Origin: an uncultured Clostridia bacterium
Lineage (GTDB): Bacteria; Bacillota; Clostridia; Christensenellales; UBA3700
NCBI GenBank assembly: GCA_947177795.1
Contig: CAMWVR010000004.1
Coordinates: 1-53,063, forward strand
Reading direction: 5' to 3'
Length of the DNA stretch: 53,063 bases
Shown: positions 12,677 through 44,422 of the stretch, one piece after another
Layout of the letters: every line of letters begins with the position of its first letter
How positions within the stretch are numbered: the stretch's first letter is position 1
Translations under genes and position numbers: made by a program
Notes under the pieces: generated by a model
What the model saw: the letters and a program-made list of their open reading frames with translations, nothing else
The model's database searches: none
What the model was told of the DNA's origin: nothing

Positions 12677-12703
12677 AGACCTCTCCGCTGCGGTCGAGGT
12701 GAC
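12677..12703 (+). repeat. Hairpin repeat unit (27-nt class)
   Basis: agaCCTCtccgctgcggtcGAGGtgac. Member of the interspersed aga-NNNN...N'N'N'N'-tgac family. Confidence 0.8.
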
Positions 12704-12812
12704 AATAGGTGTGGTCGAGGCGGTAAATTTAAGGAAATATAGGGAACAAAGGTTTATCACATAATTTTTTTGTGAAAAATATAATACATAGGCTAGAGAT
12801 AGAGGTGGAAGT

Positions 12813-15440
12813 ATGCTTAAGTTGACAAATATCAAAAAAGACTACGTTTTGAACGGCGGAGACACCGTTCCTGCGCTCAAAGGCGTTGATCTGGAATTCA
12901 GACAAAGCGAATTCGTATCTATATTGGGTCCGTCGGGTTGCGGAAAAACGACGTTGCTCAATATTATAGGCGGTCTTGACAGATATACCGACGGAGATAT
13001 GTCCGTCGACGGCATTTCCACCAAGCATTATTCCGACGTCGATTGGGATTCTTATAGAAATATCAGAATAGGTTTTATTTTCCAAAGTTATAACTTGATT
13101 TCGCACGTCGATATCCTTACCAACGTGGAAATGGCGCTTTTGCTCGCAGGCGTAAGCAAGCAGGAAAGACGCCAACGCGCAGTAAAAGCTCTCGAGGACG
13201 TGGGCTTGGGCGAACACATACATAAAAAGCCCAATCAACTCTCGGGCGGTCAGATGCAGAGAGTTTCTATCGCAAGAGCGCTTATCAACAATCCAAGCAT
13301 TATTCTAGCAGACGAGCCTACCGGCGCGCTCGACTCCAACACCAGCGTACAGATAATGGAGATTCTCAAAGAGATATCTTATAACAAGCTCATTATAATG
13401 GTCACGCACAATCCCGAACTTGCAGAGCAATACTCCAACCGTATAGTTCGACTTAAAGACGGACTCGTCGTCGCAGACACGAATCCTTATTCTTCGGAAA
13501 AAGAAAAGGCGGCGAATGGCAAGGAAGAAGGCGTGGAGGATATCTTGACGACCGACGACGTTGCGGCGCAGGACGATCCCGAGAAAAAACTCGACGACGC
13601 AGTTGCGCAAGAGGGCGGCGCAGGCGACGTGAAAAAGAAAAGGAAAGTCAAAATCGCCAAGATAGATTTCTCCAAGCATAAGGCGAGAAGACAACGTAAG
13701 AATTTGCTCAAAAAGACGTCTATGTCTTTTGCTTCGGCAATCAAGTTGTCCTTTACCAACCTTATGACGAAAAAGGGCAGGACCTTTATGACGGCGTTTG
13801 CCGGATCTATCGGCATAATCGGCGTGGCTTTGGTCCTTGCTATATCCAACGGATTTTCGTCATATATCGGCAATATGCAAAAGACCATGCTTTCGGGTTA
13901 TCCCATAGCTATCACTTCGAGCGCAACGAGTATGGAAAGTCTCATGGGTACTTATATGCAAATGCTCAATCCCGATAAGGAGAAGTATCCCGTCGATGAG
14001 AAAGTCTATTCTTACAATTTGCTTACCTTGCTGGGCAATATGATCCACGAGAATGATTTGAGCGACGAGTATATGACGTATTTCGACGAGAAGAAGACGC
14101 AGTGGGAGCAAAACGGACTCGTAGACAGCGTTTATTACAATTACGGATATTCGTATACGGTAATCAATAAAAACAATTACGACGTCGGCAAGATGATAAG
14201 CACTAATTTCAAGACGGTCAATTGGCAAGAACTTGTCGGCGATCAAAAATACATCGAGAGCAACTTCGATATCATAGGCGGCAGATACCCCTCTAAGGCG
14301 ACGGACCTCGTGCTCGTCGTGGACAAAACCAACTCGCTCGTATCGATATATCTCGAGGGTATGGGTCTTGCAAGTAACGCCGCAATTTCGGGCAACTTTA
14401 CTTTTGACGAGATATTGGGAACGGGAAAGAACAGAGAACCCGTGTCATTCCTTATTCCCAACTCAAGAGCAAAATACAAGAAGACCGTAAACGATAAAGG
14501 CGTCACTTATTTTGCAGAGAGATCAGGCAAAGAAATCAGACAGATGTATAACGACGGCAACGAGGATATTTATAAAGCCGAGGTTGTCGGCATAATCCGT
14601 CCCAAAGAGGGAAAGGACTATTCCCCTATATATCCCGGTATTGCGTATACTCAAGAGCTGTCGGAGCTCATGAGAGCAGACGCTGTCGACAGCGAGATAG
14701 CCAAGTTCCAACAAGAAGTGGACTATAATCCGCTTACGGGCGAAAAATACGACACGTCAAGCATAGATTTTTCCAACTTGGATCTCAACAATATCATGAA
14801 TATCATAAACGGCGCGTCTACGGCAATGACTAAAAAGGTCGTCACGCAAATGATAGGCGTAAGTTCGACTCCAAGCGCGATAAGCATTTATGCAAGCGAT
14901 TTTGACAACAAAGACGTGATACTCGGCGATCTCGACGCATGGAATAATTCGCATAAGCAAGAGAGTAAGGCGCAAGTCAAATACTCCGACAGCGCGGCTA
15001 TCATGATAAATATGATCAGTCAGATCATCAATATCATTACCATTGCGTTGGTGTGCTTCTCGTCGGTGTCGCTCGTCGTCTCGTCGATAATGATAGGTAT
15101 TATCACTTACGTATCGGTAGTGGAGCGTACGAAGGAGATTGGTATATTGCGTTCGCTCGGCGCGAGAAAGCGAGACGTCTCCAATATATTTAACGCCGAG
15201 ACCTTTATTATCGGTCTTGCGGCAGGCGCAATAGGCGTGCTCGTGACGTATATTTTGAGCATACCTATCAATCTCATCATCACCGCAATAGAGCCGACTA
15301 TCACGGGCATATGTATGCTGCACCCGCTGCACGCTCTGCTGATGATAGCGTTGAGTATTATACTGACGTCTATCGCAGGTATCGTTCCGTCGAGAGCCGC
15401 GGCAAAGAAAGACCCGGTAATCGCACTCAGGACGGATTGA
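12813..15440 (+). CDS. Fused ABC transporter: ATP-binding domain plus MacB/FtsX-type permease
   Basis: Walker A GPSGCGKTT, signature LSGGQMQR, Walker B ILADEPTGALD. Charged linker. C-terminal FtsX-like segment LRSLGARKRDVSNIF with flanking TM helices. Confidence 0.9.
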   Translation: MLKLTNIKKDYVLNGGDTVPALKGVDLEFRQSEFVSILGPSGCGKTTLLNIIGGLDRYTDGDMSVDGISTKHYSDVDWDSYRNIRIGFIFQSYNLISHVDILTNVEMALLLAGVSKQERRQRAVKALEDVGLGEHIHKKPNQLSGGQMQRVSIARALINNPSIILADEPTGALDSNTSVQIMEILKEISYNKLIIMVTHNPELAEQYSNRIVRLKDGLVVADTNPYSSEKEKAANGKEEGVEDILTTDDVAAQDDPEKKLDDAVAQEGGAGDVKKKRKVKIAKIDFSKHKARRQRKNLLKKTSMSFASAIKLSFTNLMTKKGRTFMTAFAGSIGIIGVALVLAISNGFSSYIGNMQKTMLSGYPIAITSSATSMESLMGTYMQMLNPDKEKYPVDEKVYSYNLLTLLGNMIHENDLSDEYMTYFDEKKTQWEQNGLVDSVYYNYGYSYTVINKNNYDVGKMISTNFKTVNWQELVGDQKYIESNFDIIGGRYPSKATDLVLVVDKTNSLVSIYLEGMGLASNAAISGNFTFDEILGTGKNREPVSFLIPNSRAKYKKTVNDKGVTYFAERSGKEIRQMYNDGNEDIYKAEVVGIIRPKEGKDYSPIYPGIAYTQELSELMRADAVDSEIAKFQQEVDYNPLTGEKYDTSSIDFSNLDLNNIMNIINGASTAMTKKVVTQMIGVSSTPSAISIYASDFDNKDVILGDLDAWNNSHKQESKAQVKYSDSAAIMINMISQIINIITIALVCFSSVSLVVSSIMIGIITYVSVVERTKEIGILRSLGARKRDVSNIFNAETFIIGLAAGAIGVLVTYILSIPINLIITAIEPTITGICMLHPLHALLMIALSIILTSIAGIVPSRAAAKKDPVIALRTD

Positions 15441-15462
15441 CGATGATCAAATCAGCGACTGT

Positions 15463-15490
15463 GGCGAACGCAATTTGCGTTCGCCATTTT
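15463..15490 (+). terminator. Rho-independent terminator
   Basis: ggcgaacgca-att-tgcgttcgcc followed by atttt. Confidence 0.8.
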
Positions 15491-15510
15491 AATTTGAAAT
15501 GATAAATCAG

Positions 15511-15539
15511 TTGCTATTTGAGGTGGCTTTATATATAAT
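15511..15539 (+). promoter_or_regulatory. alaS promoter
   Basis: TTGCTA, 17-nt spacer, TATAAT (15534-15539). Confidence 0.6.
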
Positions 15540-15569
15540 ATAGTTGTAAAAAATTCAAGAAGGTACGTT

Positions 15570-17360
15570 ATGAAAGAAATTAAGTCATACGAATTGAGAG
15601 AAAAATACCTTAAGTTTTTTGAGGAGAAAGGACACAAGATTATTCCGTCGGCGTCGTTGATACCCGAAAACGATCCGTCGGTGCTTTTTACGACGGCAGG
15701 TATGCACCCCCTCGTGCCGTATCTTTTGGGACAAAAGCACCCCGGCGGCAAGAGGCTTTGCGACGTGCAGAAGTGCGTGCGCACGGGAGATATAGACGAA
15801 GTGGGCGACGCTACGCACTGCACCTTTTTTGAGATGCTCGGTAACTGGTCGCTGGGAGATTATTTCAGAAAAGAGTCTATCAACTTTTCGTTTGAATTTT
15901 TGACCAAGGTATTGGAGATACCCGTGGAGAAGATAGCCGTCACGGTATTCGCAGGCGACGAGGACTGTCCGCGCGACGAAGAGGCGGCGGATACTTGGGC
16001 TAGTCTGGGGATACCAAGAGACAGGATATTCTATTTGCCTAAGGCAAACAATTGGTGGTACGCAGGCGCTACGGGTCCTTGCGGAAGCGACACGGAGATA
16101 TTTATAGACACGGGTAAAGAGGCTTGCGGCGATCATTGCGACCCAAGCTGCGATTGCGGAAAGTGGGTGGAGATCTGGAACAACGTGTTTATGGAATTCA
16201 ACCGCAACGCAGATGGTAAATTCGAAAAGCTCTCTCAACGCAACGTCGATACGGGCATGGGCTTGGAGCGCACCATTTGCATGCTCAACGGCTTTAAGTC
16301 GGTGTATGAGACTGACCTCTTTGCAGACGCTATCGCCAAGATAGGCGAACTTGCAGGTAAGAAGTACGGAGAGAATGAAGAAGACACGAGGGCAATGCGT
16401 ATAATTGCCGATCATATCCGTACGGCTACCTTCCTTCTCGGCGACGAGAGAGGCGTCGTTCCGTCCAACGTAGACCAAGGCTACGTATTGCGCAGACTTA
16501 TACGCAGAAGCGTGAGATTTGCCCGTCAATTGGGCATTGCTCCGCAAGATTTGGTAAGCATTGCAAAGCTTTACGTCGAGCAATACGAGAACGTATACGA
16601 AGAATTGAAGGTCAACAGCGGGAAGATATACGATGAACTCGAAAAGGAGATAGACAAGTTTTCCAAGACCTTGGAAGACGGCATCAAACAGCTTGACAAG
16701 GTGCTTCAATTCGTCAAGGGAGATACCCTCAACGGCAAGACGGCGTTCAGACTTTACGATACCTACGGTTTTCCAATCGAGATGACTGTGGAGATATGCA
16801 AAGAAAAAGGCTTTGGCGTGGATATAGAGGGATATAAACTTGCGCAGGAAGAGCATATCAAGAAGTCGCAGCAGGGCGCAGAACAGAAGTTCAAGGGCGG
16901 ACTTGCCGACAGCAGCGAGATGACGACTTATTTGCATACGGCAACGCACTTGTTGCTGGCAAGTCTGAAAAAGGTCCTTGGCGACGACGGCATTCAGCAA
17001 AAGGGCAGCAATATCACTCCCGAGAGATTGAGATTTGATTTCAACTTCCCGCGTCCGTTAACGGCGGAAGAAAAGCAAGCCGTCGAAGATGCGGTCAACG
17101 AGGCGATTGCAAGAGATATTCCCGTCGTGTGTATGGAAATGCCTATCGAGGAAGCAAGGGAGAAAAATGCAGTCGGCGTATTCGGCTCTCGCTACGGCGA
17201 AGTGGTCAAGGTATATCAAATAGGCGACGTGGATTTGCAGATATGCGGAGGGCCTCACGCTGAGCATACGGGACAGCTCGGTCACTTCACGATTGAGAAA
17301 GAACAGTCGTCTTCGGCGGGTATTCGCAGAATAAGAGCAACCGTACAACCAAAACAATAA
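15570..17360 (+). CDS. alaS: Alanine--tRNA ligase, unusually short form (596 aa)
   Basis: AlaRS catalytic motifs FEMLGNWSLGDYF and DTGMGLERT. Editing-core HxxxH (HTATHLL) and CGGPH. The protein ends just after GIRRIRA. Confidence 0.9.
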   Translation: MKEIKSYELREKYLKFFEEKGHKIIPSASLIPENDPSVLFTTAGMHPLVPYLLGQKHPGGKRLCDVQKCVRTGDIDEVGDATHCTFFEMLGNWSLGDYFRKESINFSFEFLTKVLEIPVEKIAVTVFAGDEDCPRDEEAADTWASLGIPRDRIFYLPKANNWWYAGATGPCGSDTEIFIDTGKEACGDHCDPSCDCGKWVEIWNNVFMEFNRNADGKFEKLSQRNVDTGMGLERTICMLNGFKSVYETDLFADAIAKIGELAGKKYGENEEDTRAMRIIADHIRTATFLLGDERGVVPSNVDQGYVLRRLIRRSVRFARQLGIAPQDLVSIAKLYVEQYENVYEELKVNSGKIYDELEKEIDKFSKTLEDGIKQLDKVLQFVKGDTLNGKTAFRLYDTYGFPIEMTVEICKEKGFGVDIEGYKLAQEEHIKKSQQGAEQKFKGGLADSSEMTTYLHTATHLLLASLKKVLGDDGIQQKGSNITPERLRFDFNFPRPLTAEEKQAVEDAVNEAIARDIPVVCMEMPIEEAREKNAVGVFGSRYGEVVKVYQIGDVDLQICGGPHAEHTGQLGHFTIEKEQSSSAGIRRIRATVQPKQ

Positions 17361-17371
17361 TTAAATTCAAT

Positions 17372-17397
17372 AAAGCCCGTGTTTGCGCGGGCTTTGT
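17372..17397 (+). terminator. Probable terminator after alaS
   Basis: aaagcccg-loop-cgggcttt, then gtct. The T-tract is weak. Confidence 0.6.
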
Positions 17398-17410
17398 CTA
17401 TAAGGAGCAT

Positions 17411-18190
17411 ATGGCAAGCAAGTTTCCCATTGTCCTGGTGTATGGAATATTCGTCAAAGAGATGAAATATTTCAAAGCATTCGGGAGCATAGAAAAAGTG
17501 TTGAAAAATGCCGGCTACGATGTCTATACGGCGCGTACCGACAGTTTTGGCACTGTGGAAAACAACGCTTTGCAATTGAAAGAGCAAATCGAGATTTTAC
17601 TTCAAAAGAGACGCGCGGAAAAAGTCAACGTAATCGCATATTCAAAAGGCGGACTTGACGCAAGATATTTGATAGAAAAACTCGATATGGAAAAATACGT
17701 TGCTTCGCTTACCACCATATCGGCTCCGCACAAAGGCACGAGACTTGCTACGAGATTTTATTCTTATCCCAAATGTATATTAAAGCCCTTTACCTTTTGT
17801 CTAAACGGTCTTTATAAGATTTTGGGAGATAAAAAGCCCAATTCTCTCGAAGTATTGAAAAGTCTTCAAGAAATTCCCGACGAGGAATACTCAAACGAGG
17901 TCGTATGCGCATCGGTATACTCTCAGAGTTATTCGTTGAGAATGGATAAATACGGCGACGATATACTCCTGGGAATACCCTTTGCTTTAATGAAAAAAAT
18001 CGACGGCAGTAAGTGCGACGGGGCAGTGACTCACGAGTCGTCCAAGTGGGGAGAATATAAAGGACATTGCACGGATACGCCTATGTCGCACCGCCAAATA
18101 ATAGACTTTTTGGTGGGCAAAAAGAAAAAACAAAAGATATATGAATTTTATCTTTCGCTTTGTCAAGACTTGGCAGATAGAGGTTTTTGA
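17411..18190 (+). CDS. Lipase/esterase-family alpha/beta hydrolase (paralog 1)
   Basis: 259 aa. Nucleophile-elbow-like AYSKGG. AAGGAG RBS. Clear paralog of the next gene. Confidence 0.75.
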   Translation: MASKFPIVLVYGIFVKEMKYFKAFGSIEKVLKNAGYDVYTARTDSFGTVENNALQLKEQIEILLQKRRAEKVNVIAYSKGGLDARYLIEKLDMEKYVASLTTISAPHKGTRLATRFYSYPKCILKPFTFCLNGLYKILGDKKPNSLEVLKSLQEIPDEEYSNEVVCASVYSQSYSLRMDKYGDDILLGIPFALMKKIDGSKCDGAVTHESSKWGEYKGHCTDTPMSHRQIIDFLVGKKKKQKIYEFYLSLCQDLADRGF

Positions 18191-18251
18191 CGCATAAAAA
18201 TAAACTTGCATTGACGTCTGTTAAATCAGACGCAACGAAAGGGAGAAAACT

Positions 18252-19031: not shown

Positions 19032-19083
19032 GCGAGCCTTTTTTAAGTAACAGATAAAAGGGAAGAAGTAAGAAGAATTGATT

Positions 19084-19120
19084 AGATTTCTCCATTCCGC
19101 TACGCTACAGTCGAAATGAC
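19084..19120 (+). repeat. Hairpin repeat unit (37-nt class)
   Basis: agaTTTCtccattccgctacgctacagtcGAAAtgac. A partial gaaatgac copy lies at 19133-19140. Confidence 0.8.
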
Positions 19121-19218
19121 GTAAGAAAAAAAGAAATGACAGAACGATGTTGGTTTAAGAAATAATTATACAAAACAAGTGCTAATGTTGCAAGACTTTG
19201 CATAATTCGTCATCAAGT

Positions 19219-23994: not shown

Positions 23995-24030
23995 AAAAAG
24001 GTGTGTACGATATTGTACACACCTTTTTTT
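23995..24030. terminator. Bidirectional-type rho-independent terminator
   Basis: aaaaaggtgtgtac-gatatt-gtacacaccttttt gives a 14-bp stem with an A-tract on one side and a T-tract on the other. Confidence 0.85.
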
Positions 24031-24053
24031 AGTTGCGGATAATAATTTGCATT

Positions 24054-24276
24054 AGATTCTTCGACTGCGTTGCACTCCGCTCAGAATGACTCGTTTAAAG
24101 CGAGAGTTAAGCCTTGAATGCGTCACTCTGAGCGTGGCGTATGGCGGAGTCGAAGAGTCTATTCTATGTTACCTCGACCGCAGTGGAGAGGTCTCTATCC
24201 GTATTAGATTTCTCCGTACGGTAGCAAGCGTCAGAGTCTAAATTGATTGAGATTTCTCGACTTCGCTCGAAATGAC
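24054..24276. repeat. Cluster of five hairpin repeat units
   Basis: Units: 24054-24090 (TTCT/AGAA, forward), 24122-24160 (reverse, CTCT/AGAG), 24168-24194 (reverse, CCTC/GAGG), a degenerate unit at 24206-24238, and 24250-24276 (TTTC/GAAA). Confidence 0.8.
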
Positions 24277-26436: not shown

Positions 26437-26733
26437 ATGTCCTCCGAAATTCTCATCAAGTTCGTACGACATCTTGCTACTGATTGCGCACTAAGTTCGT
26501 CTACGCATTTCGACGTACATAGAGTACGACGAAATCCCTATCCTCCAAATCACTTACGCAATCTTGTCGTGTCACTTAATTCAAATTTCTATATTATTTT
26601 TTTAATCTAATTAAGTTCGCAAGACGTCTTGCCGTATTCACTTAACTCAAGCCTTTTAATTCTTTTGACTTTCTTAAGGTCATACTTACGTATTACCGTA
26701 GCACTTAATTCGAAAATTATTTTATTTTACTTT
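26437..26733 (-). other. 297-nt leuS-serS intercistronic region with four GAAYTTAAGTG-like direct repeats and two long hairpins
   Basis: Plus-strand cacttaattcg (26702), cacttaactca (26639), cacttaattca (26573), cactaagttcg (26490). Palindrome gcaagacgtcttgc (26619-26632). Hairpin at 26505-26537. Confidence 0.5.
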
Positions 26734-30249: not shown

Positions 30250-30906
30250 ATGAAGATTGAAAAGAGCGAACTTTTGAGATATCTCGGATATAAGGGACAG
30301 CAGTACGGCGAGAATATAGAAAACAATATAGACCTCGCCATATCTATTTGTCTTGAAAAGATTACTCCGAGAAGCGTAATCAAAAAGTACGCGCTTGTCA
30401 AAGAGCCGCTTTCGCTGAAGGGCGCAAATATGACGTTGCAAGGGCAGGATATCGCAAGACATCTTGAAGACTGCAACGAGGCGTATATTCTCGGCGCGAC
30501 GGTGGGATTTGAGATAGAAAAAACCGTCAACAAATTGATGAACGAAAATCCTTTGCTTGGCGTGATAGTCGACAGCGCAAGTATTTGCGCTATAGAGAGC
30601 TATTGCGACGACCTGTGCGAAGAATTGCAAAGACAAAATTCAAAGCAGTTGACTTGGAGATTTTCCTGCGGTTACGGCGACTTTCCGCTTGAGCAGCAAA
30701 AGGATTTCGTCAGAGTACTCGAGATGCAAAAACGCATAGGCGTGTTTATCAACGAAGACAGTTTTATGATGACTCCGCAAAAGTCAGTTACGGCAATTAT
30801 AGGCGTGAAGGAAACCGCAAGAGAGGATATGCAATCGAGAGGGTGCGCAGGTAAGTGCGGGAATTGCGGAAACGTGACTTGCCAATATCGCAAAATTGAA
30901 AATTAG
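30250..30906 (+). CDS. Stand-alone methionine synthase activation (reactivation) domain protein
   Basis: About 218 aa. The LRYLGY start and Cys-rich C-terminus CAGKCGNCGNVTC match the free-standing activation-domain proteins of Clostridia. It sits between metF and the truncated metH. Confidence 0.7.
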   Translation: MKIEKSELLRYLGYKGQQYGENIENNIDLAISICLEKITPRSVIKKYALVKEPLSLKGANMTLQGQDIARHLEDCNEAYILGATVGFEIEKTVNKLMNENPLLGVIVDSASICAIESYCDDLCEELQRQNSKQLTWRFSCGYGDFPLEQQKDFVRVLEMQKRIGVFINEDSFMMTPQKSVTAIIGVKETAREDMQSRGCAGKCGNCGNVTCQYRKIEN

Positions 30907-30917: not shown

Positions 30918-30986
30918 AGACCCTTCGACTACGCTCAGGGTGACGATAAAATACGGATGAGATATCTCGACTGCGCTCGATATGAC
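30918..30986 (+). repeat. Two hairpin repeat units
   Basis: 30918-30944 agaCCCTtcgactacgctcAGGGtgac. 30960-30986 agaTATCtcgactgcgctcGATAtgac. A degenerate fragment lies at 30997-31017. Confidence 0.85.
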
Positions 30987-33580: not shown

Positions 33581-33588
33581 AACGGATT

Positions 33589-33903
33589 AGATTTCTCCAT
33601 TTCGTTTCACTTCGCTAAATATGATATTATAAGGATAGAGATTTCTCCACTACGCTCCGCTTCGGTCGAAATGACATATTATATTTGAGCGTCAATGACA
33701 ATATATTTTATGTCACCTCGAGCGCAGTCGAGAGGTCTCAACCGTTTATTAAGTACCGACAAAATGGAGCCTTGCGACATTTTCGTTTGGTCGGTAGGGC
33801 GAAGTCCAACCGTACGTTTAGCAATTACTTTGCTTGCCAAAGTCATTGCGTATTGTTAGGTTGTGACGCACGCCCCGTCACCTCGAGCGTAGTCGAGAGG
33901 TCT
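33589..33903. repeat. Dense repeat cluster filling the metH-nudix intergenic region
   Basis: Hairpin units at 33589-33625 (degenerate), 33639-33675, 33712-33738 (reverse) and 33877-33903 (reverse). Type-B hairpin at 33754-33796. Extra hairpin at 33821-33849. Confidence 0.85.
33754..33796 (+). repeat. Type-B 43-nt hairpin repeat, copy 1
   Basis: taccgacaaaatggagccttgcgacattttcgtttggtcggta. Matches the reverse complement of 42209-42251 at 41 of 43 positions. Confidence 0.85.
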
Positions 33904-33933
33904 CTAACAGATTAGCATATAGGAAAAGTTTAT

Positions 33934-36198: not shown

Positions 36199-36269
36199 TA
36201 ACAAGCAAAGTGATGTTGCTGTTCTATTAACTCGGATAAATCTAATCAACATCATTAAATGAGGATATT

Positions 36270-37521: not shown

Positions 37522-37555
37522 TTTTTAATGTTTAAATGTCAAGAAACGCAGCTAA

Positions 37556-37586
37556 GCAATTCGCCGATTTCGGCGAATTGCTTTTA
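37556..37586 (+). terminator. Rho-independent terminator
   Basis: gcaattcgccg-attt-cggcgaattgc gives an 11-bp perfect stem, followed by tttt. Confidence 0.85.
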
Positions 37587-37712
37587 TAATTTGGGAGAAA
37601 TCGCCGAAATCGGAGAATATACTATTGACAAAATACTCACGATTGATAAATTCGGCTTGGGAAGTTACGACGGCATCGTCGTAGAAAATATAATAGATTG
37701 GTTGAAGTCAAA

Positions 37713-38603: not shown

Positions 38604-38697
38604 AATCTCTCCTTTGCTTTCTTTATATCAGTCTTCTTGAATAATTTTATCCCTATTTATGCAGTAATGTCAATGTAGGAAAAGCATTTGTTAGGTA

Positions 38698-38731
38698 GCG
38701 TTGCGCAATCGTTACTGAGATTGCGCAACGC
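38698..38731. other. 13-bp perfect-stem hairpin between the permease gene and the kinase gene
   Basis: gcgttgcgcaatc-gttactga-gattgcgcaacgc. There is no U-tract on the minus strand. Confidence 0.6.
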
Positions 38732-38748
38732 AAATTTAGGGGGTTATG

Positions 38749-39585
38749 TCACCTTAAATTAGTTTTGTTGAATATAAGCATACCTGCGCCGTTGGCCGCG
38801 CATATCCAGCCAAGATTGCAAAGCATCGGTTGCCATCTGAAGTCGTAGTTGAGAGTAATTTGCAAGTCTTGTCCAGTCGGCAAGAAATCTAACATAAATT
38901 TGCAAAAGTCAAGCGTAGCCTTTCCCGGCAACTCGGGATTGGGAACTTTTTTGTAATAAGGTATGCCAAATAATTCTGCGTCCACGTAAATATAAGGCGG
39001 TATGCTCAAAACAGCGTCAAAGACGAATATGGCGAGGAAATAACTTACTATAATCAACGATAGTGAAATGAGTAGCGCGGCGATTTGGTTCTTGCTTGTC
39101 ATAGTGATAAAAGTAAATATAGAAGAGTATGCAAGTACCATTAGCGCACCTTCCGATATAAGCAAATATATATTCTTTGCGGGGACGGTGATCTTGCCAA
39201 ACAGCGGAAGTGTAAGTATGCAGAAAAATAGTTGATAGACTATAATGAGCGCAATAGATATTATGCTTGTCGTCAGCAAGTTGGCGGCGTATATTTGGCT
39301 TTTCCTATAACTTATTATGATTTTGTTTTTCAAAGTCCCGTTTTGAAAGTCCGCACCGAAGATCACGCTACAGATAACGGCGACGATTGCGGCGGGTATG
39401 GGAAGACCTATCAAGCCATATCCGAAAGCAAGTATTTCCGCGCTCGATTCAGATATGGGGGTGTAAGGGACAAAGCGTATTATTATAGGCGTCAAGATTG
39501 AATACAAAATATACGCGGAAAAGAATATCCAAAAAGTTGCGCTTTTGACCAATCTTGTGAAATTGGCGCGTAATAATTTTAGCAT
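38749..39585 (-). CDS. ABC-2-type permease (LanG/E-like)
   Basis: Six predicted TM helices. Paralog of 39613..40470 (shared MLKLLRANFTRLVKSATFWIF-type N-terminus and GADFQNGTLKNKII motif). Confidence 0.8.
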   Translation of the reverse strand: MLKLLRANFTRLVKSATFWIFFSAYILYSILTPIIIRFVPYTPISESSAEILAFGYGLIGLPIPAAIVAVICSVIFGADFQNGTLKNKIIISYRKSQIYAANLLTTSIISIALIIVYQLFFCILTLPLFGKITVPAKNIYLLISEGALMVLAYSSIFTFITMTSKNQIAALLISLSLIIVSYFLAIFVFDAVLSIPPYIYVDAELFGIPYYKKVPNPELPGKATLDFCKFMLDFLPTGQDLQITLNYDFRWQPMLCNLGWICAANGAGMLIFNKTNLR

Positions 39586-39612
39586 TGGGGTCTTCCTCCT
39601 TTAAAAATTTTG

Positions 39613-40470
39613 TTACTTGATATTCGACTTTTTGAAGACGGCTATTCCTACGCCGCTCGTTGCTGTAATTAAACCTAGTGAGTACAGAAGCATTTGCCAG
39701 GTGTGAGAATATCCTCCGTTTGATATTTGCGCACTTTGTCCGCTTGGGAAGAAATCAAGCAAAAATTGGCAAAAAACGCGTACCGCTTTACTCGGATAAT
39801 ACGGATTAGGGACGTCGGTCAAAAGTACATCGCCGAATTCGTCGCGCATTAAATTGCCGAATTCGTCTATCATAAAGTCTTTTATGAAAGGCGGAATATT
39901 ATTTGTATAATAGTGGGCAGCAAAGGCTATAAGCGCTCCGCAGGTCAATACTACTAACGAGATTATTACTGCGGCGGTGGAGTTTTTGCTAACCATTACT
40001 ATCAAGGTCATTACCGCAGAGTACGTCATAAGCATAAGCGCGCCGTTGACTAACATCCAAATTATCGTACTTGCGGACGACGTGAACTTGCCGAGCAACG
40101 GCATTCCCAATATGAAGAATACCAAAAGATAAATTACGCTCAGCGCAAGCGATAAAATCATCATTGTCAAAAGGTTGGCAAGATAGATATAAGTCTTTGA
40201 CTGACCGATAATGATTTTATTTTTTAAAGTTCCGTTGTGAAAATCTGCGCTGAAGATAATGCAGCATAAAAGCGCTATGAGTACTCCTTGCATCGGAAAC
40301 CATTCTATACCGTAATTGAGAGAAAGCATTTTGTCGCTTGTTATACGTTCAAAACTACTGTTTTCAATAACCGCGATAATAATGGGATATAATGCGTATA
40401 ATGCTACCAATATCCAAAAAGTCGCGCTTTTTATTACTCTTGCAAAATTGGCTTTAAGGAGTTTAAACAT
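39613..40470 (-). CDS. ABC-2-type permease (LanE/G-like)
   Basis: Paralogous to 38749..39585. Overlaps the ATPase gene by 8 nt. Confidence 0.8.
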   Translation of the reverse strand: MFKLLKANFARVIKSATFWILVALYALYPIIIAVIENSSFERITSDKMLSLNYGIEWFPMQGVLIALLCCIIFSADFHNGTLKNKIIIGQSKTYIYLANLLTMMILSLALSVIYLLVFFILGMPLLGKFTSSASTIIWMLVNGALMLMTYSAVMTLIVMVSKNSTAAVIISLVVLTCGALIAFAAHYYTNNIPPFIKDFMIDEFGNLMRDEFGDVLLTDVPNPYYPSKAVRVFCQFLLDFFPSGQSAQISNGGYSHTWQMLLYSLGLITATSGVGIAVFKKSNIK

Positions 40471-41377
40471 TACTCTCGCCTCCCAGAAGATTGATATAAT
40501 AAGACTCCAAAGTTTCGTCTTTTTCGCTTACTTTGATAAGCGTAATGCCGTGGCACTTGAGAATATCGCTCAATGCCGATATGCTTATTTCGCCGTACAG
40601 TTCGCCTTCGGTGGGGGAAGTAAGTTTGTATTGCAGATGCGTTTCGTCGAGAGCAGAGCAAAGTTCAACGGCGGTGTCGACTTTGAATACGATACGCTTT
40701 TTGAGACTGTCCTCGAGTTGGTCTTTGGTGATTTCTTTGAGTATCTTGCCTTTGTCGATAAAGCCGTAGTGCGTGGCTATTTTGGAAAGTTCGTCGAGAA
40801 TATGGCTTGAGATCAAAAAGGCAATGTTACGTTCTTTGTTAAGTTTGAGTATGATTTCCCTTATTTCCACTATGCCTTGCGGGTCAAGTCCGTTGATAGG
40901 TTCGTCAAGCACGACGAAGTCTGGATCGGAGGCTAGAGCCATTGCAATTCCAAGTCTTTGGCGCATACCCAGAGAAAAATTGCGGACGGGCTTTTTGCCT
41001 GTGTCTTTGAGGTCAACCATTTCAAGGAGTTTGTCAATTCCGTCAAACGACGGTTTGCCAAGCAACAAAAATTGCTGTTTGAGATTGTCTTTGGCGCTCA
41101 TACTGCCGTATAGCGCGGGGGATTCGACAATCCCGCCCATTCGTCTGCGAGCGCTGTAAATCTCTTTGCCAGTATATGGCGCGCCGAATATTGAATAAGT
41201 GCCTACCGTAGGCGATTGAAGACCGCAGATAATGCGAATCAACGTGGTTTTACCTGCGCCGTTTTTTCCGACGAGTCCGTAAATTGCGCCTTGGGGAATA
41301 CGCATAGTTACGCCGTCGAGAGCGAGATATTTGCGGTATTTTTTTGACAGGTTGTCAACGGTTAAACAATATTCCAT
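40463..41377 (-). CDS. ABC transporter ATP-binding protein (LanF-like)
   Basis: Walker A GKNGAGKTT, signature FSLGMRQRL, Walker B VVLDEPINGLD. Confidence 0.9.
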   Translation of the reverse strand: MEYCLTVDNLSKKYRKYLALDGVTMRIPQGAIYGLVGKNGAGKTTLIRIICGLQSPTVGTYSIFGAPYTGKEIYSARRRMGGIVESPALYGSMSAKDNLKQQFLLLGKPSFDGIDKLLEMVDLKDTGKKPVRNFSLGMRQRLGIAMALASDPDFVVLDEPINGLDPQGIVEIREIILKLNKERNIAFLISSHILDELSKIATHYGFIDKGKILKEITKDQLEDSLKKRIVFKVDTAVELCSALDETHLQYKLTSPTEGELYGEISISALSDILKCHGITLIKVSEKDETLESYYINLLGGESNV

Positions 41378-41456
41378 ATAGAATACTCCTTGGATTTTGT
41401 ACCTTTATATTATCGTATATAAATCAAGGAATTTATAAAAAAACGTCAATATTTTG

Positions 41457-42119
41457 TTAAGATTTTAATTTATATCCGATACCCCATACCGCTTGAATGT
41501 AGTCTTTGTCAGTCGTTGTCTTGAGTTTTGCGCGCAAGTTGGCTATATGAGTGCGCAACGAACTCTCTTCGCAATCGGGCGTAAGGTCTTCGATTTGGGT
41601 CATTATAGCGTCCTTGGAAAAGACTTTGTCGGGATTTTGCATAAGAGTATAGAGTATTGCAAATTCCGTCTTGGTGAGTTTGAGGGGCGTATTTTTTACG
41701 CTTGCGACGTAGGTCGATAGGTCTAAAGATATGTCTTCAAATTCAAGCCTGTCATTTTTGCGCGCGCTTTCTCGCAGGTGCACGCTTATTCTGGCAAGCA
41801 GTTCCTTTATATCAAAAGGCTTTGTCACGTAATCTACTGCGCCCGAGAGCAATAAGTTGACTTTGTTGTCGATATCTACTTTGGCGCTCACGACGATGAC
41901 GGGGATGTTTTGGATTTTCGGCAAGAGTTCCTCGCCCGAAAGTCCCGGCAACATAAGGTCGAGCAAAATCAAATCGGGGCGGTTGCTTTGAATTACGTAC
42001 GGCGCTTCCGTGCCCGAATAGGCTCTGGCAACTGCGTAGTCGTTTTTTTCCAACAACTCCTGCAACATATCTCCGATATATACGTCGTCGTCAATTATCA
42101 ATATCGTCTTTTTTTGCAT
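41457..42119 (-). CDS. OmpR-family response regulator
   Basis: MQKKTILIIDDD receiver domain and a winged-helix C-terminus (WGIGYKL). GAGG RBS. The first 53 codons of track ORF 41457..42278 run through repeat elements and are rejected. Confidence 0.9.
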   Translation of the reverse strand: MQKKTILIIDDDVYIGDMLQELLEKNDYAVARAYSGTEAPYVIQSNRPDLILLDLMLPGLSGEELLPKIQNIPVIVVSAKVDIDNKVNLLLSGAVDYVTKPFDIKELLARISVHLRESARKNDRLEFEDISLDLSTYVASVKNTPLKLTKTEFAILYTLMQNPDKVFSKDAIMTQIEDLTPDCEESSLRTHIANLRAKLKTTTDKDYIQAVWGIGYKLKS

Positions 42120-42152
42120 ACAAGCCTCGTTTGAATAAAAATCGTTAGTTTT

Positions 42153-42181
42153 AGTATATTTTACTTTTTGCAATTTGTCAA
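42153..42181 (-). promoter_or_regulatory. Promoter of the response-regulator/ABC operon
   Basis: The minus strand reads TTGACA (42181-42176), 17 nt, TATACT (42158-42153). Confidence 0.65.
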
Positions 42182-42191
42182 TATGGGATTG

Positions 42192-42314
42192 AGATTTCTC
42201 CGCGTCGCTACCGACAAAACGAAAATGTCGTAAGGCTCCATTTTGTCGGTAATTAATAAAAGCATTAGATCTCTCCACTGCGGTCGAGATGACATTAAGA
42301 TTAATCGAAATGAC
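42192..42314. repeat. Repeat cluster: truncated hairpin unit, type-B hairpin copy 2, complete hairpin unit, partial unit
   Basis: 42192-42208 agatttctccgcgtcgc (truncated). 42209-42251 type B. 42267-42293 agaTCTCtccactgcggtcGAGAtgac. 42305-42314 tcgaaatgac. Confidence 0.8.
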
Positions 42315-42385
42315 AAATAGAATAGGAATATATATTTTTATTTATTAAAGGTGATTATTTTGATTAAGTTGGGCATAATCGCAGT

Positions 42386-42625
42386 ATGAGAGAAATTATA
42401 AAACACATCGATGAAGTAAAAAGAAGAGTGGGGCTTATCGTAGGTCAGCCCTTGACTTTTGAGGTCAACAAAGGTCGCAACAAGTTTGTCAAATTCGACG
42501 GATATATCCAAGACGCTTATCCGGCGATATTTACCGTGCGATGCATGATTGAGGGCGAGGAAGAATTGCTCTCGTATTCGTATAACGATATCTTGACTCG
42601 CAACGTTAGGATAAATAAAAAATAG
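42386..42625 (+). CDS. veg: Veg-family protein
   Basis: 79 aa. GRNKFVKFDGYIQDAYPAIFTV and SYSYNDILTRNV are characteristic of Veg/DUF1021. Confidence 0.85.
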   Translation: MREIIKHIDEVKRRVGLIVGQPLTFEVNKGRNKFVKFDGYIQDAYPAIFTVRCMIEGEEELLSYSYNDILTRNVRINKK

Positions 42626-42690
42626 TTTTTGTCATATTGCCTTATTTAACGCAATATACTATGGTGTAAAAACAACTGTGCGGAGGATAT

Positions 42691-44190
42691 ATGGCAATCA
42701 ATACAGTATTTAAGAGCGTAGGCTCGGATTATGAAAGAAATCTTGACGGAAAACAAATAGTGACGCAGTGCAACTTTGACACCACGTCCAAGGGCGGCGT
42801 GACGAAAGTGTGCGCATTGTCGAGCGACGCTCAAATCACGAAGGTACAGGCGCTGTCAAAACTAATCAAGATCAGCGGAAGAGTTTCGCTCAAACTCGTC
42901 TATCTTGACGGAGAGGGGAAACTCGGCAGTTTTGACTATATCTCCGACTTCTCGGAAGACATTGCCGACGATGCGGTCATTGCAGATATGCCGTGCTTGG
43001 TAAGAGCAAGTATAGTAGATAGCGTATCCAGCGTATCGGGAGCGGAAATCAAGGTGCAGACGGTCGTCGAATTGTCGCCAACGGTCGTTGAAATCAACAC
43101 CGTCGAACTTCTCGAAGAGGGCGAGGGCGCTCTTGCGTTGCGTCAAGAGCAAGATTATCAAAGATATCTCGCCACCGTCAACGAAGAATTGGAAGTGAGC
43201 GAAGAGTACGCTTGCGGAGCAAGAGTCGACGACGTGCTTTTCTATGACGCCAAAGTCTTGGTCTGCAACGTCGACAACGACGACGAAAAGTTGACTGTCA
43301 GCGGTCAATTGGAGATCAGCGTAATCTATTCAAGCGAAGGCGTTGAGGCTACGAAGAATATCAATCTGCCTTTCGTGCAGGAACTTGCGGCTCGCGGAGA
43401 GAATTTGCGCGCTTGCATAGCCGCTAATATCAAAGACAGCAGACTCATCATTGAGGGCGGAGAAAACGACAATACTCTCAAGATGATAATTTGTATATCC
43501 TTGCAGGGATTCGTCATGCAAATCGATAGGACATCGGCGATCGTAGACTTGTATTCGCCCACCAACGCTTTGCAAGTGAGCAAAGAGACGATAAGCTTTG
43601 ACAGACAAAACGGCGTAATGCGTTTTGAAGAGAGAATAAGCGGAAGCGTGGCTGTCGACGACGGCGACGAGGGGATCAAGAATATCATCAGCAGCGTGGT
43701 CACGCAAAACACTCTTTCCAACCTCGTGGCAATGCAGAATTGTATACTTGCCGAAGGCATACTTAACACCTGCGTGATCTATATGAGCGAGGGCGGCAAT
43801 ATCAAGTGCATTCAAGTGGAATTGCCGTATTCGCTGCAATTTGACAAAGAAGGCGTGTCGGCAGGAGATATCCTTTGCGGCAGCGCTATTGCGACGGATT
43901 GCGCGCACAAAGTCAAGAGAGACAGAGAAATCGAGTTGACGGCAAACGTCGTGTTGTCGGTATGCTCCAAGACTCCCGTCGAAAACGTCGTGATCAAGTC
44001 GCTTGAAGAGGGCGAGTGTCTCGAGGTCAACGCAAGCGCAATAAGCGTATATCTCCCAAGCAAGGGCGAAAGCATTTGGCAGGTCGCAAAGACTTTGGGT
44101 ATGTCAATAGAAAGCATCATGGCGCAAAATCCCGACCTCGGCGACGTCATGCAAGGCGACGAAAGAATCGTAATCTATCGCGAAGTGTAA
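42691..44190 (+). CDS. DUF3794 (SPOCS)-type repeat protein with a C-terminal LysM-like domain
   Basis: GGAGGA RBS. C-terminal ISVYLPSKGESIWQVAKTLGMSIESIMAQNPDL. Conserved neighbourhood with veg in spore formers. Confidence 0.7.
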   Translation: MAINTVFKSVGSDYERNLDGKQIVTQCNFDTTSKGGVTKVCALSSDAQITKVQALSKLIKISGRVSLKLVYLDGEGKLGSFDYISDFSEDIADDAVIADMPCLVRASIVDSVSSVSGAEIKVQTVVELSPTVVEINTVELLEEGEGALALRQEQDYQRYLATVNEELEVSEEYACGARVDDVLFYDAKVLVCNVDNDDEKLTVSGQLEISVIYSSEGVEATKNINLPFVQELAARGENLRACIAANIKDSRLIIEGGENDNTLKMIICISLQGFVMQIDRTSAIVDLYSPTNALQVSKETISFDRQNGVMRFEERISGSVAVDDGDEGIKNIISSVVTQNTLSNLVAMQNCILAEGILNTCVIYMSEGGNIKCIQVELPYSLQFDKEGVSAGDILCGSAIATDCAHKVKRDREIELTANVVLSVCSKTPVENVVIKSLEEGECLEVNASAISVYLPSKGESIWQVAKTLGMSIESIMAQNPDLGDVMQGDERIVIYREV

Positions 44191-44221
44191 AGCACACTGG
44201 AACGTCAATAACGAATTATAA

Positions 44222-44258
44222 TAAGATCTCGCCGTGGCGGCGAGGTCTTATGCTTTTT
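44222..44258 (+). terminator. Rho-independent terminator
   Basis: taagatctcgcc-gtggc-ggcgaggtctta (12-bp stem with one G-U pair), then tgcttttt. Confidence 0.75.
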
Positions 44259-44273
44259 ATTTTTATACTGATG

Positions 44274-44422
44274 AGATTTCTCCACTTCGGTCGAAATGAT
44301 ATATTATATTTGAGCAGCAATGACAAAAGATTTTATGTCACCTCGAGCGCAGTCGAGAGGTCTAATCCTATTATTAAATTGGTAGAGATTTCTCCATTTC
44401 GCTGCGCTTCAGTCGAAATGAC
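44274..44422. repeat. Repeat cluster of three hairpin units plus a conserved spacer
   Basis: 44274-44300 (TTTC/GAAA). 36-nt spacer at 44301-44336. 44337-44363 (reverse, identical to 33712-33738). 44386-44422 (37-nt class). Confidence 0.85.

What the first reader, a model, noticed from the sequence alone, without database searches (positions are those of the whole stretch)
12677..44422. Interspersed hairpin repeat family with compensatory stem changes (at least 16 copies, all intergenic)
**Unit structure**
- Units read aga-NNNN-tc...-N'N'N'N'-tgac in either orientation.
- The conserved flanks are aga / tgac.
- There are two size classes, 27 nt and 37-39 nt. The longer class has a 10-12-nt insert in the loop.

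**Compensatory pairing**
- The variable 4-mer is always matched by its reverse complement.
- Seven pairs are seen: CCTC/GAGG, TTTC/GAAA, TTCT/AGAA, CTCT/AGAG, CCCT/AGGG, TATC/GATA, TCTC/GAGA.
- Seven different stem sequences that all preserve pairing argue for selection on the hairpin itself, not simple copying.

**Distribution**
- Copies sit just past 3' ends of genes or in intergenic clusters: 12677, 19084, 24054-24276, 30918-30986, 33589-33903, 42192-42314, 44274-44422.
- A divergent relative lies at 26505-26537.
- The ORF caller translates them as spurious peptides (...RFLHFGRNDI..., ...VTSSAVERS...).

**Interpretation**
- This behaves like a REP/BIME-type element.
- Its possible roles in terminating or stabilising transcripts, and its mobilising enzyme, are unknown from this window.
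Basis: seen in the sequence. Interest (0 to 1): 0.65.

Follow-up and report, generated by a model that had tools for sequence, protein, structure and literature searches.

The report
Ssn-nuclease hairpin repeats in a Clostridia genome
The repeated intergenic hairpins are real. They belong to a class described in 2025, the single-stranded-DNA hairpin sites that flank and are cut by small GIY-YIG "Ssn" nucleases, so this is a new host and sequence subtype of a known system, not a new kind of element.

Summary
**Observation: confirmed.**
- A covariance-model census finds 15 significant units plus 3 decayed or split remnants.
- All lie in 7 intergenic regions of a spore-forming Clostridia-like gut chromosome. 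Intergenic DNA is 11% of the window.
- On the informative strand a unit reads 5'-GTCA-N4-GA-S-CGNAG-Y-S-GA-N4'-TCT.
- The N4/N4' and S/S pairs covary strongly.
- The 37-39-nt class carries a second copy of the ~10-nt apical module.

**Interpretation: partly right.**
- The units are REP-like, but not of the RAYT type.
- The same 27-nt motif occurs in genomes of more than 15 phyla.
- The only recurrent neighbour is a ~95-aa single-domain GIY-YIG protein.
- Of 80 metagenomic loci encoding such a protein, 57/78 have a unit within 150 nt upstream, 60/78 have an inverted unit within 150 nt downstream, and 46 have both.
- These proteins are 43% identical to Neisseria SsnA, whose gene is flanked by canonical NTS hairpins.
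- The family is therefore an "Ssn-related motif" in the sense of Chenal et al. 2025 (PMC11893778).

**Differences and limits.**
- The paper's degenerate search string matches 0 of the 15 units, because of the tandem GA.
- Stems vary freely, even around a single ssn gene.
- The host belongs to the Bacillota.
- No ssn gene lies in the window, and the rest of the genome could not be searched.

The parts
12677..12703 (-). Short unit, 27 nt, stem CCTC/GAGG. The strand given is the one that reads GTCA...TCT.
   Evidence: 41.7 bits, E 8.5e-11. It lies 216 nt beyond the canonical terminator at 12438-12461.
19084..19120 (-). Long unit, 37 nt, stem TTTC/GAAA, with a doubled apical module.
   Evidence: 26.9 bits, E 5.3e-6. 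It is 92% identical to the unit at 44386-44422.
24054..24090 (-). Long unit, 37 nt, stem TTCT/AGAA.
   Evidence: 35.2 bits. It lies just beyond the hairpin plus T-run at 23995-24035.
24122..24160 (+). Long unit, 39 nt, stem CTCT/AGAG, inverted relative to the unit at 24054.
   Evidence: 22.3 bits, E 1.6e-4.
24168..24194 (+). Short unit with a degenerate 5' flank (GTTA instead of GTCA), stem CCTC.
   Evidence: 33.4 bits. It is 97% identical to the unit at 12671-12700.
24250..24276 (-). Short unit, 27 nt, stem TTTC/GAAA.
   Evidence: 47.1 bits, the best hit.
30918..30944 (-). Short unit, stem CCCT/AGGG, 11 nt after the stop codon of the gene at 30250-30906.
   Evidence: 43.2 bits.
30960..30986 (-). 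Short unit, stem TATC/GATA.
   Evidence: 44.6 bits.
33589..33625 (-). Decayed long unit, about 76% identical to the unit at 44386-44422. The stem no longer pairs.
   Evidence: Read. It is not significant under the model.
33639..33675 (-). Long unit, 37 nt, stem TTTC. It holds two tandem cores, GACCGAAGCGGA and GAGCGTAGTGGA, that share a GA.
   Evidence: Contig flanks of many kinds begin exactly at 33638/33639 and 33675-33677 in gut metagenomes, and word depth is 13-48 times that of the flanking genes.
33712..33738 (+). Short unit, stem CCTC, the inverted partner of the unit at 33639 in an 84-nt composite module.
   Evidence: The module 33655-33738 is 93% identical to 44280-44363.
33877..33903 (+). 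Short unit, stem CCTC, 31 nt upstream of the NUDIX gene.
   Evidence: 43.8 bits.
42192..42314 (-). Two halves of a TTTC unit (42192-42208 and 42298-42314) enclose an 88-nt module. The module consists of a second hairpin repeat at 42209-42258 plus the short TCTC unit at 42267-42293.
   Evidence: unit 42267-42293: 44.6 bits; 42298-42314: 10.8 bits, partial.
44274..44300 (-). Short unit with a degenerate 5' flank (ATCA), stem TTTC.
   Evidence: 35.6 bits. It lies beyond the canonical terminator at 44221-44251.
44337..44363 (+). Short unit, stem CCTC, inverted partner of the unit at 44274.
   Evidence: 44.8 bits.
44386..44422 (-). Long unit, 37 nt, stem TTTC.
   Evidence: 26.9 bits.

Best explanation
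**What the units are**
- They are Ssn-related motifs (SRM; the Neisseria version is called NTS/dRS3).
- These are REP-like repeats that, as single-stranded DNA on the GTCA strand, fold into a small hairpin.
- Here the hairpin has a 5-bp variable stem, a tandem G.A platform, one S:S pair, and a C(GNA)G mini-loop.

**How they most likely work**
- A ~95-aa single-domain GIY-YIG nuclease of the Ssn family recognises the hairpin together with the invariant GTC(A) just 5' of it and the C just 3' of it.
- The enzyme nicks the single strand a few nucleotides upstream of GTCA.
- The units in the window are non-autonomous copies. They are derivatives of the hairpin-ssn-hairpin cassette, they have multiplied into intergenic DNA, and they are gained and lost quickly between strains.

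**Shown here**
- Family membership of the units.
- Covariation of the stem pairs.
- Association of the same unit type, including both size classes and mixed stems, with SsnA homologues in other genomes.
- High copy number and turnover.

**Inferred**
- That this organism encodes a cognate Ssn.
- That the enzyme cuts these units.
- The cellular role. From the Neisseria work this is limiting recombination of incoming or exposed ssDNA near the repeats, or simple selfish spread.
For: **Distribution of the motif**
- The 27-nt pattern hits more than 119 genome loci from many phyla.
- In 130 of 146 copies N4 and N4' are perfectly complementary, across 19 different stems.
- The S/S positions are complementary in all 146 copies, although the pattern left them free.
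- Covariation is 0 of 500 shuffles as high.

**Association with the GIY-YIG gene**
- The only recurrent neighbouring protein family is a small GIY-YIG protein.
- In L017 a unit ends 2 nt before the ATG and an inverted copy follows the gene. L058 and L038 are similar.
- In 80 independent metagenome loci chosen by the protein, 57/78 have a unit upstream, 60/78 have an inverted unit downstream, and 46 have both.
- The covariance model gives 159 hits in 268 kb of those loci.
- A 27-nt unit with stem TGTC upstream and a 39-nt unit with stem TTTC downstream flank one and the same gene in at least 6 loci.
- 35 of 54 loci carry two or more stems.

**Link to the characterised Neisseria system**
- In the same protein family, some genes are flanked by NTS-type hairpins GTCATTCCC..GGGAATC.
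- The N. gonorrhoeae SsnA orthologue (94 aa, flanked by canonical NTS) is 43% identical over its full length, E 1e-24.
- The biochemistry and the definition of the family come from PMC11893778.

**This lineage**
- Bins holding units are 10-48 times deeper than the flanking genes, and contigs break at the units.
- Related strains carry 188 other letters in place of the 349-nt cluster at 33583-33931.
- 38 units occur in 83.5 kb of 16 Bacillota loci.
Against: - No ssn gene lies in the 53-kb window or in the 9 kb to its left. The rest of the genome could not be read.
- The paper's degenerate SRM search string matches 0 of the 15 units.
- Nm SsnA lost activity when the palindrome sequence was changed while the structure was kept (paper). 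Here seven stems coexist, so either recognition differs or several enzymes exist.
- Nearest-neighbour DNA folding gives weak, non-significant energies for most units. The hairpin therefore rests on covariation and on known G.A/GNA motifs that the energy model does not capture.
- The paper finds Ssn mostly in Gram-negative bacteria. No Bacillota record appeared among 32 plasmid hits.
Confidence: 0.8

Rival explanations
1. Classical REP/BIME elements. On this reading the hairpins are recognised and spread by a RAYT (a domesticated IS200/IS605-type Y1 HUH transposase), as in E. coli and Pseudomonas.
For: - The anatomy is similar: a conserved 5' tetranucleotide plus an imperfect palindrome.
- The location is intergenic.
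- Inverted pairs and mosaic clusters occur, for example 33639/33712 and 44274/44337/44386.
Against: - The tetranucleotide is GTCA, not the GTAG type (my knowledge of Nunvar 2010 and Ton-Hoang 2012).
- phmmer with IS608 TnpA and E. coli RAYT found nothing at E <= 10 in 1.2 Mb of unit-bearing loci plus the window, and nothing in 0.46 Mb of viral loci.
- All-against-all clustering of neighbouring ORFs recovered no transposase family.
- The gene flanked by the units is a GIY-YIG nuclease.
Confidence: 0.03
2. RNA-level elements. On this reading the units act in transcripts as terminators, 3'-end stabilisers or protein-binding hairpins, and that function explains the conserved pairing.
For: - Most units lie downstream of co-directional genes.
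- REPs in other bacteria can stabilise mRNA 3' ends (general knowledge).
- Ten of 15 units share one orientation relative to the predominantly + strand genes.
Against: - None has a T-tract or scores as a terminator.
- Canonical terminators sit between the gene end and the units at 12438-12461, 23995-24028 and 44221-44251.
- Both orientations occur within a cluster.
- The strand with the better structure (tandem G.A, GNA loop) is mostly the template strand and so is not in the mRNA.
- There is no Rfam match.
- Nm SsnA binds ssDNA but not RNA (paper).
- No RNA-seq run was available.
Confidence: 0.07
3. Orphan relics. On this reading the units were spread by an Ssn cassette that this lineage has since lost. 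They are now inert, decaying repeats that matter only as recombination substrates.
For: - No ssn gene lies in the 62 kb examined.
- Several copies are decayed or split: 24168, 33589, 42192/42298 and 44274.
- According to the paper, 19% of genomes with more than 200 SRMs lack an SsnA homologue.
Against: - Most copies are intact with perfect stems: 13 of 15 keep 4 of 4 pairs and exact flanks.
- Copy number is high and the clusters differ between strains about 92% identical, which points to recent activity.
- 62 kb is a small sample of a genome.
Confidence: 0.1

Closest known systems
NTS/dRS3 and Ssn-related motifs (SRM) with SsnA GIY-YIG ssDNA nucleases (Chenal et al., Nat Commun 2025, PMC11893778)
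   Same: - Oriented hairpin repeats of 20-50 nt, with GTCA immediately 5' and TC immediately 3' of the palindrome. These are the positions that govern cutting and binding by Nm SsnA.
- A GCGNAGC-like apex.
- Intergenic and clustered, present in many copies.
- Inverted copies flank a ~95-aa single-domain GIY-YIG gene.
- The flanked proteins are 43% identical to Neisseria SsnA.
   Different: - The stem is interrupted by an invariant tandem GA/GA, so the paper's search string finds none of the 15 units.
- The 4-nt stem is free to vary. There are 7 versions in this window, 19 across phyla, and two at the ends of a single gene. Nm SsnA, by contrast, needs its own stem sequence.
- A second size class carries a doubled apical module.
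- In GA-type cassettes the GTCA ends mostly face outward. At the Neisseria gene they face the gene.
- The host is a spore-forming Bacillota gut bacterium. Clostridia and Bacillota are not mentioned in the paper's main text.
REP/BIME elements with RAYT (TnpA-REP) transposases of Proteobacteria
   Same: - A short imperfect palindrome preceded by a conserved tetranucleotide.
- Intergenic location.
- Inverted pairs and mosaics.
- An enzyme gene flanked by its own repeats.
- Recognition as ssDNA.
   Different: - The enzyme fold is GIY-YIG, not Y1-HUH.
- The tetranucleotide is GTCA, not GTAG.
- No RAYT was found near the units.
IS200/IS605 ends and their non-autonomous derivatives (PATEs)
   Same: - Sub-terminal ssDNA hairpins with the cleavage site offset from the hairpin.
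- Small non-autonomous copies outnumber the enzyme genes.
   Different: - In IS200/IS605 both ends are processed on the same strand. Here the two flanking hairpins are inverted, so the cleavable strand differs at the two ends.
- No transposition has been shown for Ssn cassettes.
d(GCGAAGC)-type GNA mini-hairpins and tandem sheared G.A pairs (structural motifs known from DNA/RNA biophysics; from my own knowledge)
   Same: The apex S-CGNAG-(Y)-S and the GA/GA internal loop have exactly the sequences that form these unusually stable non-canonical structures.
   Different: This is a structural analogy only. It was not tested here, and nearest-neighbour folding does not model these structures.

Membership tests
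Ssn-related motif (SRM/NTS) of Ssn GIY-YIG ssDNases | An oriented hairpin repeat with conserved GTC(A) directly 5' of the palindrome and C directly 3' of it. | tested here: met
   - Thirteen of 15 window units have exact GTCA...TCT.
- The other two have one-base variants.
- The flank-free core search recovers the same units.
Ssn-related motif (SRM/NTS) of Ssn GIY-YIG ssDNases | A 20-50-nt inverted repeat that forms a hairpin. | tested here: met
   - Units are 27 or 37-39 nt.
- Five covarying pairs, 98.1% of cells paired, 0 of 500 shuffles as high.
- Thermodynamic support is weak.
Ssn-related motif (SRM/NTS) of Ssn GIY-YIG ssDNases | The same unit type flanks ssn genes as inverted copies (hairpin-ssn-hairpin). 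| tested here: met
   - In other genomes: L017, L038, L058.
- In 80 metagenome loci: 57/78 upstream, 60/78 downstream, 46 both.
- Both size classes are found there.
Ssn-related motif (SRM/NTS) of Ssn GIY-YIG ssDNases | The flanked protein is a single-domain ~95-aa GIY-YIG homologous to characterised SsnA. | tested here: met
   - PF01541 is the only domain covering the protein.
- 43% identity over the full length to the N. gonorrhoeae SsnA orthologue, which is flanked by canonical NTS.
- A CDD cd10448 assignment could not be run.
Ssn-related motif (SRM/NTS) of Ssn GIY-YIG ssDNases | A match to the paper's operational search string HGTCWYN(0-2)YYVSBRHN(0-5)WNVSBRGN(0-2)RNCYNB. This is a heuristic drawn from 29 genomes, not a definition. 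| tested here: not met
   - 0 of 15 units match.
- The only window hit is a chance match inside a gene.
- The invariant GA after N4 breaks the YYVSB part of the string.
Ssn-related motif (SRM/NTS) of Ssn GIY-YIG ssDNases | An ssn gene is present in the same genome. | tested here: inconclusive
   - None in the window or in the 9 kb to its left.
Ssn-related motif (SRM/NTS) of Ssn GIY-YIG ssDNases | Intergenic, clustered and in many copies per genome. | tested here: met
   - 15 of 15 units are intergenic, in 7 clusters.
- Word depth at the units is 10-48 times that of the flanking genes in four gut metagenomes.
Ssn-related motif (SRM/NTS) of Ssn GIY-YIG ssDNases | Bound and cut by the cognate Ssn only as ssDNA, on one strand, a few nt 5' of the motif. 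| not testable with these tools
   This needs biochemistry. It is known for the Neisseria and Wolbachia enzymes (paper).
REP/BIME with RAYT | An associated Y1 (HUH) RAYT gene flanked by the repeats. | tested here: not met
   - No hit at E <= 10 in 1.2 Mb, and none in a further 0.46 Mb. The queries were recalled from memory.
- No transposase cluster appeared among the neighbours.
REP/BIME with RAYT | A conserved GTAG-type 5' tetranucleotide. | tested here: not met
   The tetranucleotide is GTCA in all intact units.
REP/BIME with RAYT | Mosaic clusters of units in alternating orientation. | tested here: met
   Seen at 24054(-)/24122(+), 33639(-)/33712(+), and 44274(-)/44337(+)/44386(-). Composite modules are repeated.
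Intrinsic (Rho-independent) terminator | A GC-rich stem followed by a T-tract. | tested here: not met
   - No unit appears among the terminator-like sites.
- Separate canonical terminators lie upstream of three clusters.
Any curated RNA family (Rfam 15) | A covariance-model match. | tested here: not met
   - 0 matches at the gathering threshold in the whole window.
- 0 matches at E <= 1 in two sub-regions.

The most novel reading that the evidence does not exclude
**The reading**
- The GA-type hairpins define a large, cross-phylum subfamily of Ssn sites.
- In this subfamily the nuclease reads shape plus a few fixed bases: the GTCA/TCT flanks, the tandem G.A platform and the GNA mini-loop. It does not read the stem sequence.
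- One enzyme could therefore serve many stems and both size classes.

**What would follow**
- The hairpin-ssn-hairpin cassette would be a genuinely mobile element that has crossed into Gram-positive spore-formers.
- This would differ from the stem-sequence-specific recognition shown for Neisseria SsnA.
- It would give a modular, programmable ssDNA-nuclease site.
Probability: 0.35. Interest if true: 0.55.

Novelty: new member of a known kind. Interest (0 to 1): 0.3.

Why it matters
- The result removes an apparent mystery. It assigns a very widespread source of spurious 'hypothetical proteins' (peptides such as RFLHFGRNDI and VTSSAVERS) to the Ssn/SRM system.
- The published search string misses a major subtype of that system.
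- The system extends into gut Clostridia.
- It raises a testable question: stem sequence may be irrelevant for this subtype. That question bears on the use of Ssn enzymes as programmable ssDNA nucleases.
- For annotation, the covariance model built here could mask these units before gene calling.

Tried and rejected
- **Wrong pattern.** The first viral scan used a 28-nt pattern with one base too many and gave 6 irrelevant hits. The corrected pattern gave 51 viral loci with no nuclease nearby.
- **Thermodynamic folding.** Folding the units as ssDNA gave z-scores near 0 for most, so energy alone does not support the hairpin.
- **Alternative pairing register.** The register CTCGA/TCGAG suggested by the minimum-free-energy fold is rejected, because the S11:S18 swap G-C to C-G would break it.
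- **Looking for ssn in this organism.**
  - Six-frame HMM search of the window found nothing.
  - Contig extension gave 9 kb to the left, with rnpA-yidD-yidC and defence-like genes but no units and no ssn. The right end of the window is a contig end.
- **Homologue search.** It returned only Bacteroidota and Kiritimatiellae-like top hits.
- **Plasmid search.** It gave no Bacillota records.
- **RNA-seq.** No runs exist for this organism.
- **G.T versus A.C mismatches.** The counts do not discriminate the functional strand, 5 against 3.
- **Rfam.** Nothing was found.
- **Supplementary data.** The paper's supplementary tables are not held, so I could not check whether GA-type units appear in its curated list.


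Full report
**1. The observation.**

The window is a chromosomal segment of a spore-forming Clostridia-like gut bacterium.
- It carries SpoIIE, SipL, Veg, AlaRS, SerRS, LeuRS and MetH.
- It is known only from gut metagenome assemblies.
- It lies a few kb from rnpA-yidD-yidC, so it is origin-proximal, and the G-rich + strand is the leading strand.

The units exceed chance by a wide margin.
- A strict scan for AGA-N4-...-rc(N4)-TGAC gives 16 hits against 0.8 in shuffles.
- The exact 27-nt pattern gives 8 against 0.00.
- The flank-free core GASCGNAGYSGA gives 13 against 0.17.

A covariance model (R1) finds 15 units at E <= 1.6e-4.
- All 15 lie in the 11.4% of the window that is intergenic, in 7 regions. 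P is about 2.6e-7 for 7 clusters.
- The seven stem pairs and the two size classes are as reported.
- 33589-33625 is a decayed copy.
- 42192-42208 and 42298-42314 are two halves of a unit.
- The hairpin at 26505-26537 is unrelated.

**2. Anatomy.**

Read on the other strand, a short unit is 5'-GTCA-N4-GA-S-CGNAG-Y-S-GA-N4'-TCT-3'.
- N4 pairs with N4', and A4 pairs with T25.
- The two S positions always pair. They are G-C or C-G with no exception in 146 copies, although the search pattern left them free.
- C12 pairs with G16 around a GNA triloop, leaving one bulged pyrimidine.
- The GA/GA internal loop has the sequence of tandem sheared G.A pairs.
- These last two points rest on known structural motifs, not on a test. 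Nearest-neighbour folding does not capture them and gives unremarkable energies.

Covariation was measured on 81 distinct 27-mers from many phyla.
- 98.1% of cells are paired, against 77.7% in shuffles.
- There are 138 double-change cells against 38 +/- 9, with 0 of 500 shuffles as high.
- Slid registers give 26-47% paired.

The 37-39-nt class contains two tandem copies of the apical module. For example, 33639-33675 reads GA-CCGAAGCG-GA-GCGTAGTG-GA.

Units form composite modules.
- A long TTTC unit, a ~36-nt spacer and an inverted short CCTC unit recur at 33655-33738 and 44280-44363, 93% identical.
- A unit plus a second ~45-nt hairpin recurs at 33710-33797 and, inverted, at 42208-42295.

**3. 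Relatives elsewhere.**

These include Christensenellaceae and other Clostridia, Hymenobacter, Pedobacter, Verrucomicrobiota, Acidobacteriota, Chloroflexota, Planctomycetota, Patescibacteria and Bdellovibrionota.
- 130 of 146 copies have perfect 4/4 stems, in 19 versions.
- Sixteen Bacillota loci carry 38 units in 83.5 kb.

All-against-all comparison of ORFs near the units found one recurrent small family, a ~95-aa GIY-YIG protein.
- In L017 a unit ends 2 nt before its ATG and an inverted copy follows the gene.
- L058 has three units upstream, including a 37-nt one close to the window's long class.
- L038 has 26-nt variants on both sides.

**4. The literature.**

A full-text search led to Chenal et al. 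2025 (PMC11893778). The paper reports the following.
- The Neisseria repeat NTS (CGTCATTCCCGCGMAVGCGGGAATCYRG, which includes dRS3) and 'Ssn-related motifs' in other bacteria flank genes for SsnA.
- SsnA is a 94-aa single-domain GIY-YIG protein (cd10448).
- SsnA binds the hairpin only as ssDNA, only on one strand, and cuts a few nt upstream.
- The three bases 5' of the palindrome govern cutting. The C just 3' of it governs binding.
- dsDNA and RNA are not substrates.
- In N. meningitidis the system lowers integration of transforming DNA that carries NTS.
- The authors note the IS-like NTS-ssnA-NTS layout and the analogy with REP/RAYT.

**5. Membership tests.**

- From the protein side, 80 metagenome loci were chosen only for encoding such a GIY-YIG protein.
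  - They contain 159 model hits in 268 kb.
  - 57/78 have a sense-oriented unit within 150 nt upstream, 60/78 have an inverted unit within 150 nt downstream, and 46 have both.
- In at least six loci a 27-nt unit with stem TGTC lies upstream and a 39-nt unit with stem TTTC lies downstream of the same gene. 35 of 54 loci carry two or more stems. Both of the window's size classes and its stem diversity are therefore properties of single cassettes.
- Other genes of the same protein family are flanked by NTS-type continuous stems, GTCATTCCC..GGGAATC, in L137, L168 and L178. Both types co-occur in some genomes.
- A tblastn search found the N. gonorrhoeae orthologue, a 94-aa ORF with canonical NTS on both sides. 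It is 43% identical over its full length to the proteins flanked by GA-type units, E 1e-24 and 9e-23.
- The paper's degenerate search string matches none of the 15 units, because of the GA after N4. I treat that string as a heuristic, not a definition.
- No ssn gene lies in the window or in the 9 kb to its left. Its presence in this genome remains untested.

**6. Rivals.**

The tetranucleotide is GTCA.
- Terminator or other RNA role:
  - The units lack T-tracts.
  - They sit beyond canonical terminators at 12438-12461, 23995-24028 and 44221-44251.
  - They occur in both orientations.
  - They match no Rfam family.
  - No RNA-seq exists for this organism.
- Orphan relics: possible, but most copies are intact.

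**7. Dynamics in this lineage.**

- In four gut metagenomes the bins holding units have assembler word depths 10-48 times those of the flanking single-copy genes.
- Contigs break at the units.
- Many different flanks begin exactly at the unit borders, 33638/33639 and 33675-33677.
- Two samples carry a relative about 92% identical in metH and the NUDIX gene, with 188 unrelated letters in place of the 349-nt cluster.
- This indicates dozens of copies and rapid gain and loss. Other species in the same samples may contribute to the depth.

**8. Strand.**

- Ten of 15 units have the GTCA strand on the - strand. By inference that is the leading-strand template and the template strand of most genes.
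- The five on the + strand are all inverted partners within clusters.
- The bias is not significant on its own.

**9. Verdict.**

- The element is a REP-like ssDNA hairpin of the Ssn/SRM class described in 2025.
- It is a previously unlisted subtype in a Bacillota host: a tandem G.A platform, free stems and a doubled-module long form.
- It is not a new kind of system.

Noticed in passing
window 33757-33800 (+) and 42209-42258 (-): A second, unrelated hairpin repeat, taccgacaaaa...ttttgtcggta, about 45 nt long and without GTCA/TCT flanks. It travels with a unit in an 88-nt module. Assembler word depth reaches 866 against a baseline of about 16 in run X1, so it is also a high-copy family.
   Followed up: partly
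window 42192-42314: Two halves of a TTTC unit, AGATTTCTCCGCGTCGC and TCGAAATGAC, bracket the 88-nt module. This looks like a nested insertion of one repeat module into another unit.
   Followed up: partly
window 33676-33700, 44301-44325, 44423-44448: A ~24-nt spacer motif, (t/g)attatat(tt/cc)gagc(g/a)(t/g)ca(a/g)tgaca, follows three TTTC units. Its end resembles the 3' half of a unit.
   Followed up: no
window 26505-26537: A 12-bp hairpin about 30 nt upstream of serS on the - strand. No T-box or other Rfam family matches the leader.
   Followed up: yes
window 48165-53061: A tandem array of five to six paralogous genes of 320-350 aa on the - strand. They are 84-94% identical at the DNA level, have no Pfam hit, and lie in a low-GC (33-37%) block next to an S8 subtilase. 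No units occur there.
   Followed up: no
window 12-1380 and locus L208 5792-9990: A caspase-like (Peptidase_C14) gene followed by a small TIR-like (weak ThsB_TIR) gene, next to a DUF4238 gene. This may be a defence island, and it has low GC.
   Followed up: no
window 2064-12282: A 2962-aa protein with BspA-type leucine-rich repeats, followed by a 449-aa protein with an InlB B-repeat-like domain. These are probably surface proteins.
   Followed up: no
locus L207 8593-8814 (window about 44250-44471): A public ENA annotation calls a 73-aa gene that lies entirely over the unit cluster. This is a concrete case of the repeats producing a spurious ORF.
   Followed up: yes
locus L210 (N. gonorrhoeae NZ_CP119140.1, 2.17 Mb): This record is filed in the plasmid collection as a plasmid, but it is chromosome-sized. 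At the ssnA orthologue the NTS copies have their GTCA ends next to the gene, the opposite of most GA-type cassettes.
   Followed up: partly
loci L008-L126: Six-frame ORFs over the units give the peptides seen in many 'hypothetical proteins' of MAGs, such as ..RFLDFARND.., ..CHPERSRG.., ..VISSVVEKS.. and ..LRFARNDG... The family is therefore a widespread source of false gene calls.
   Followed up: partly
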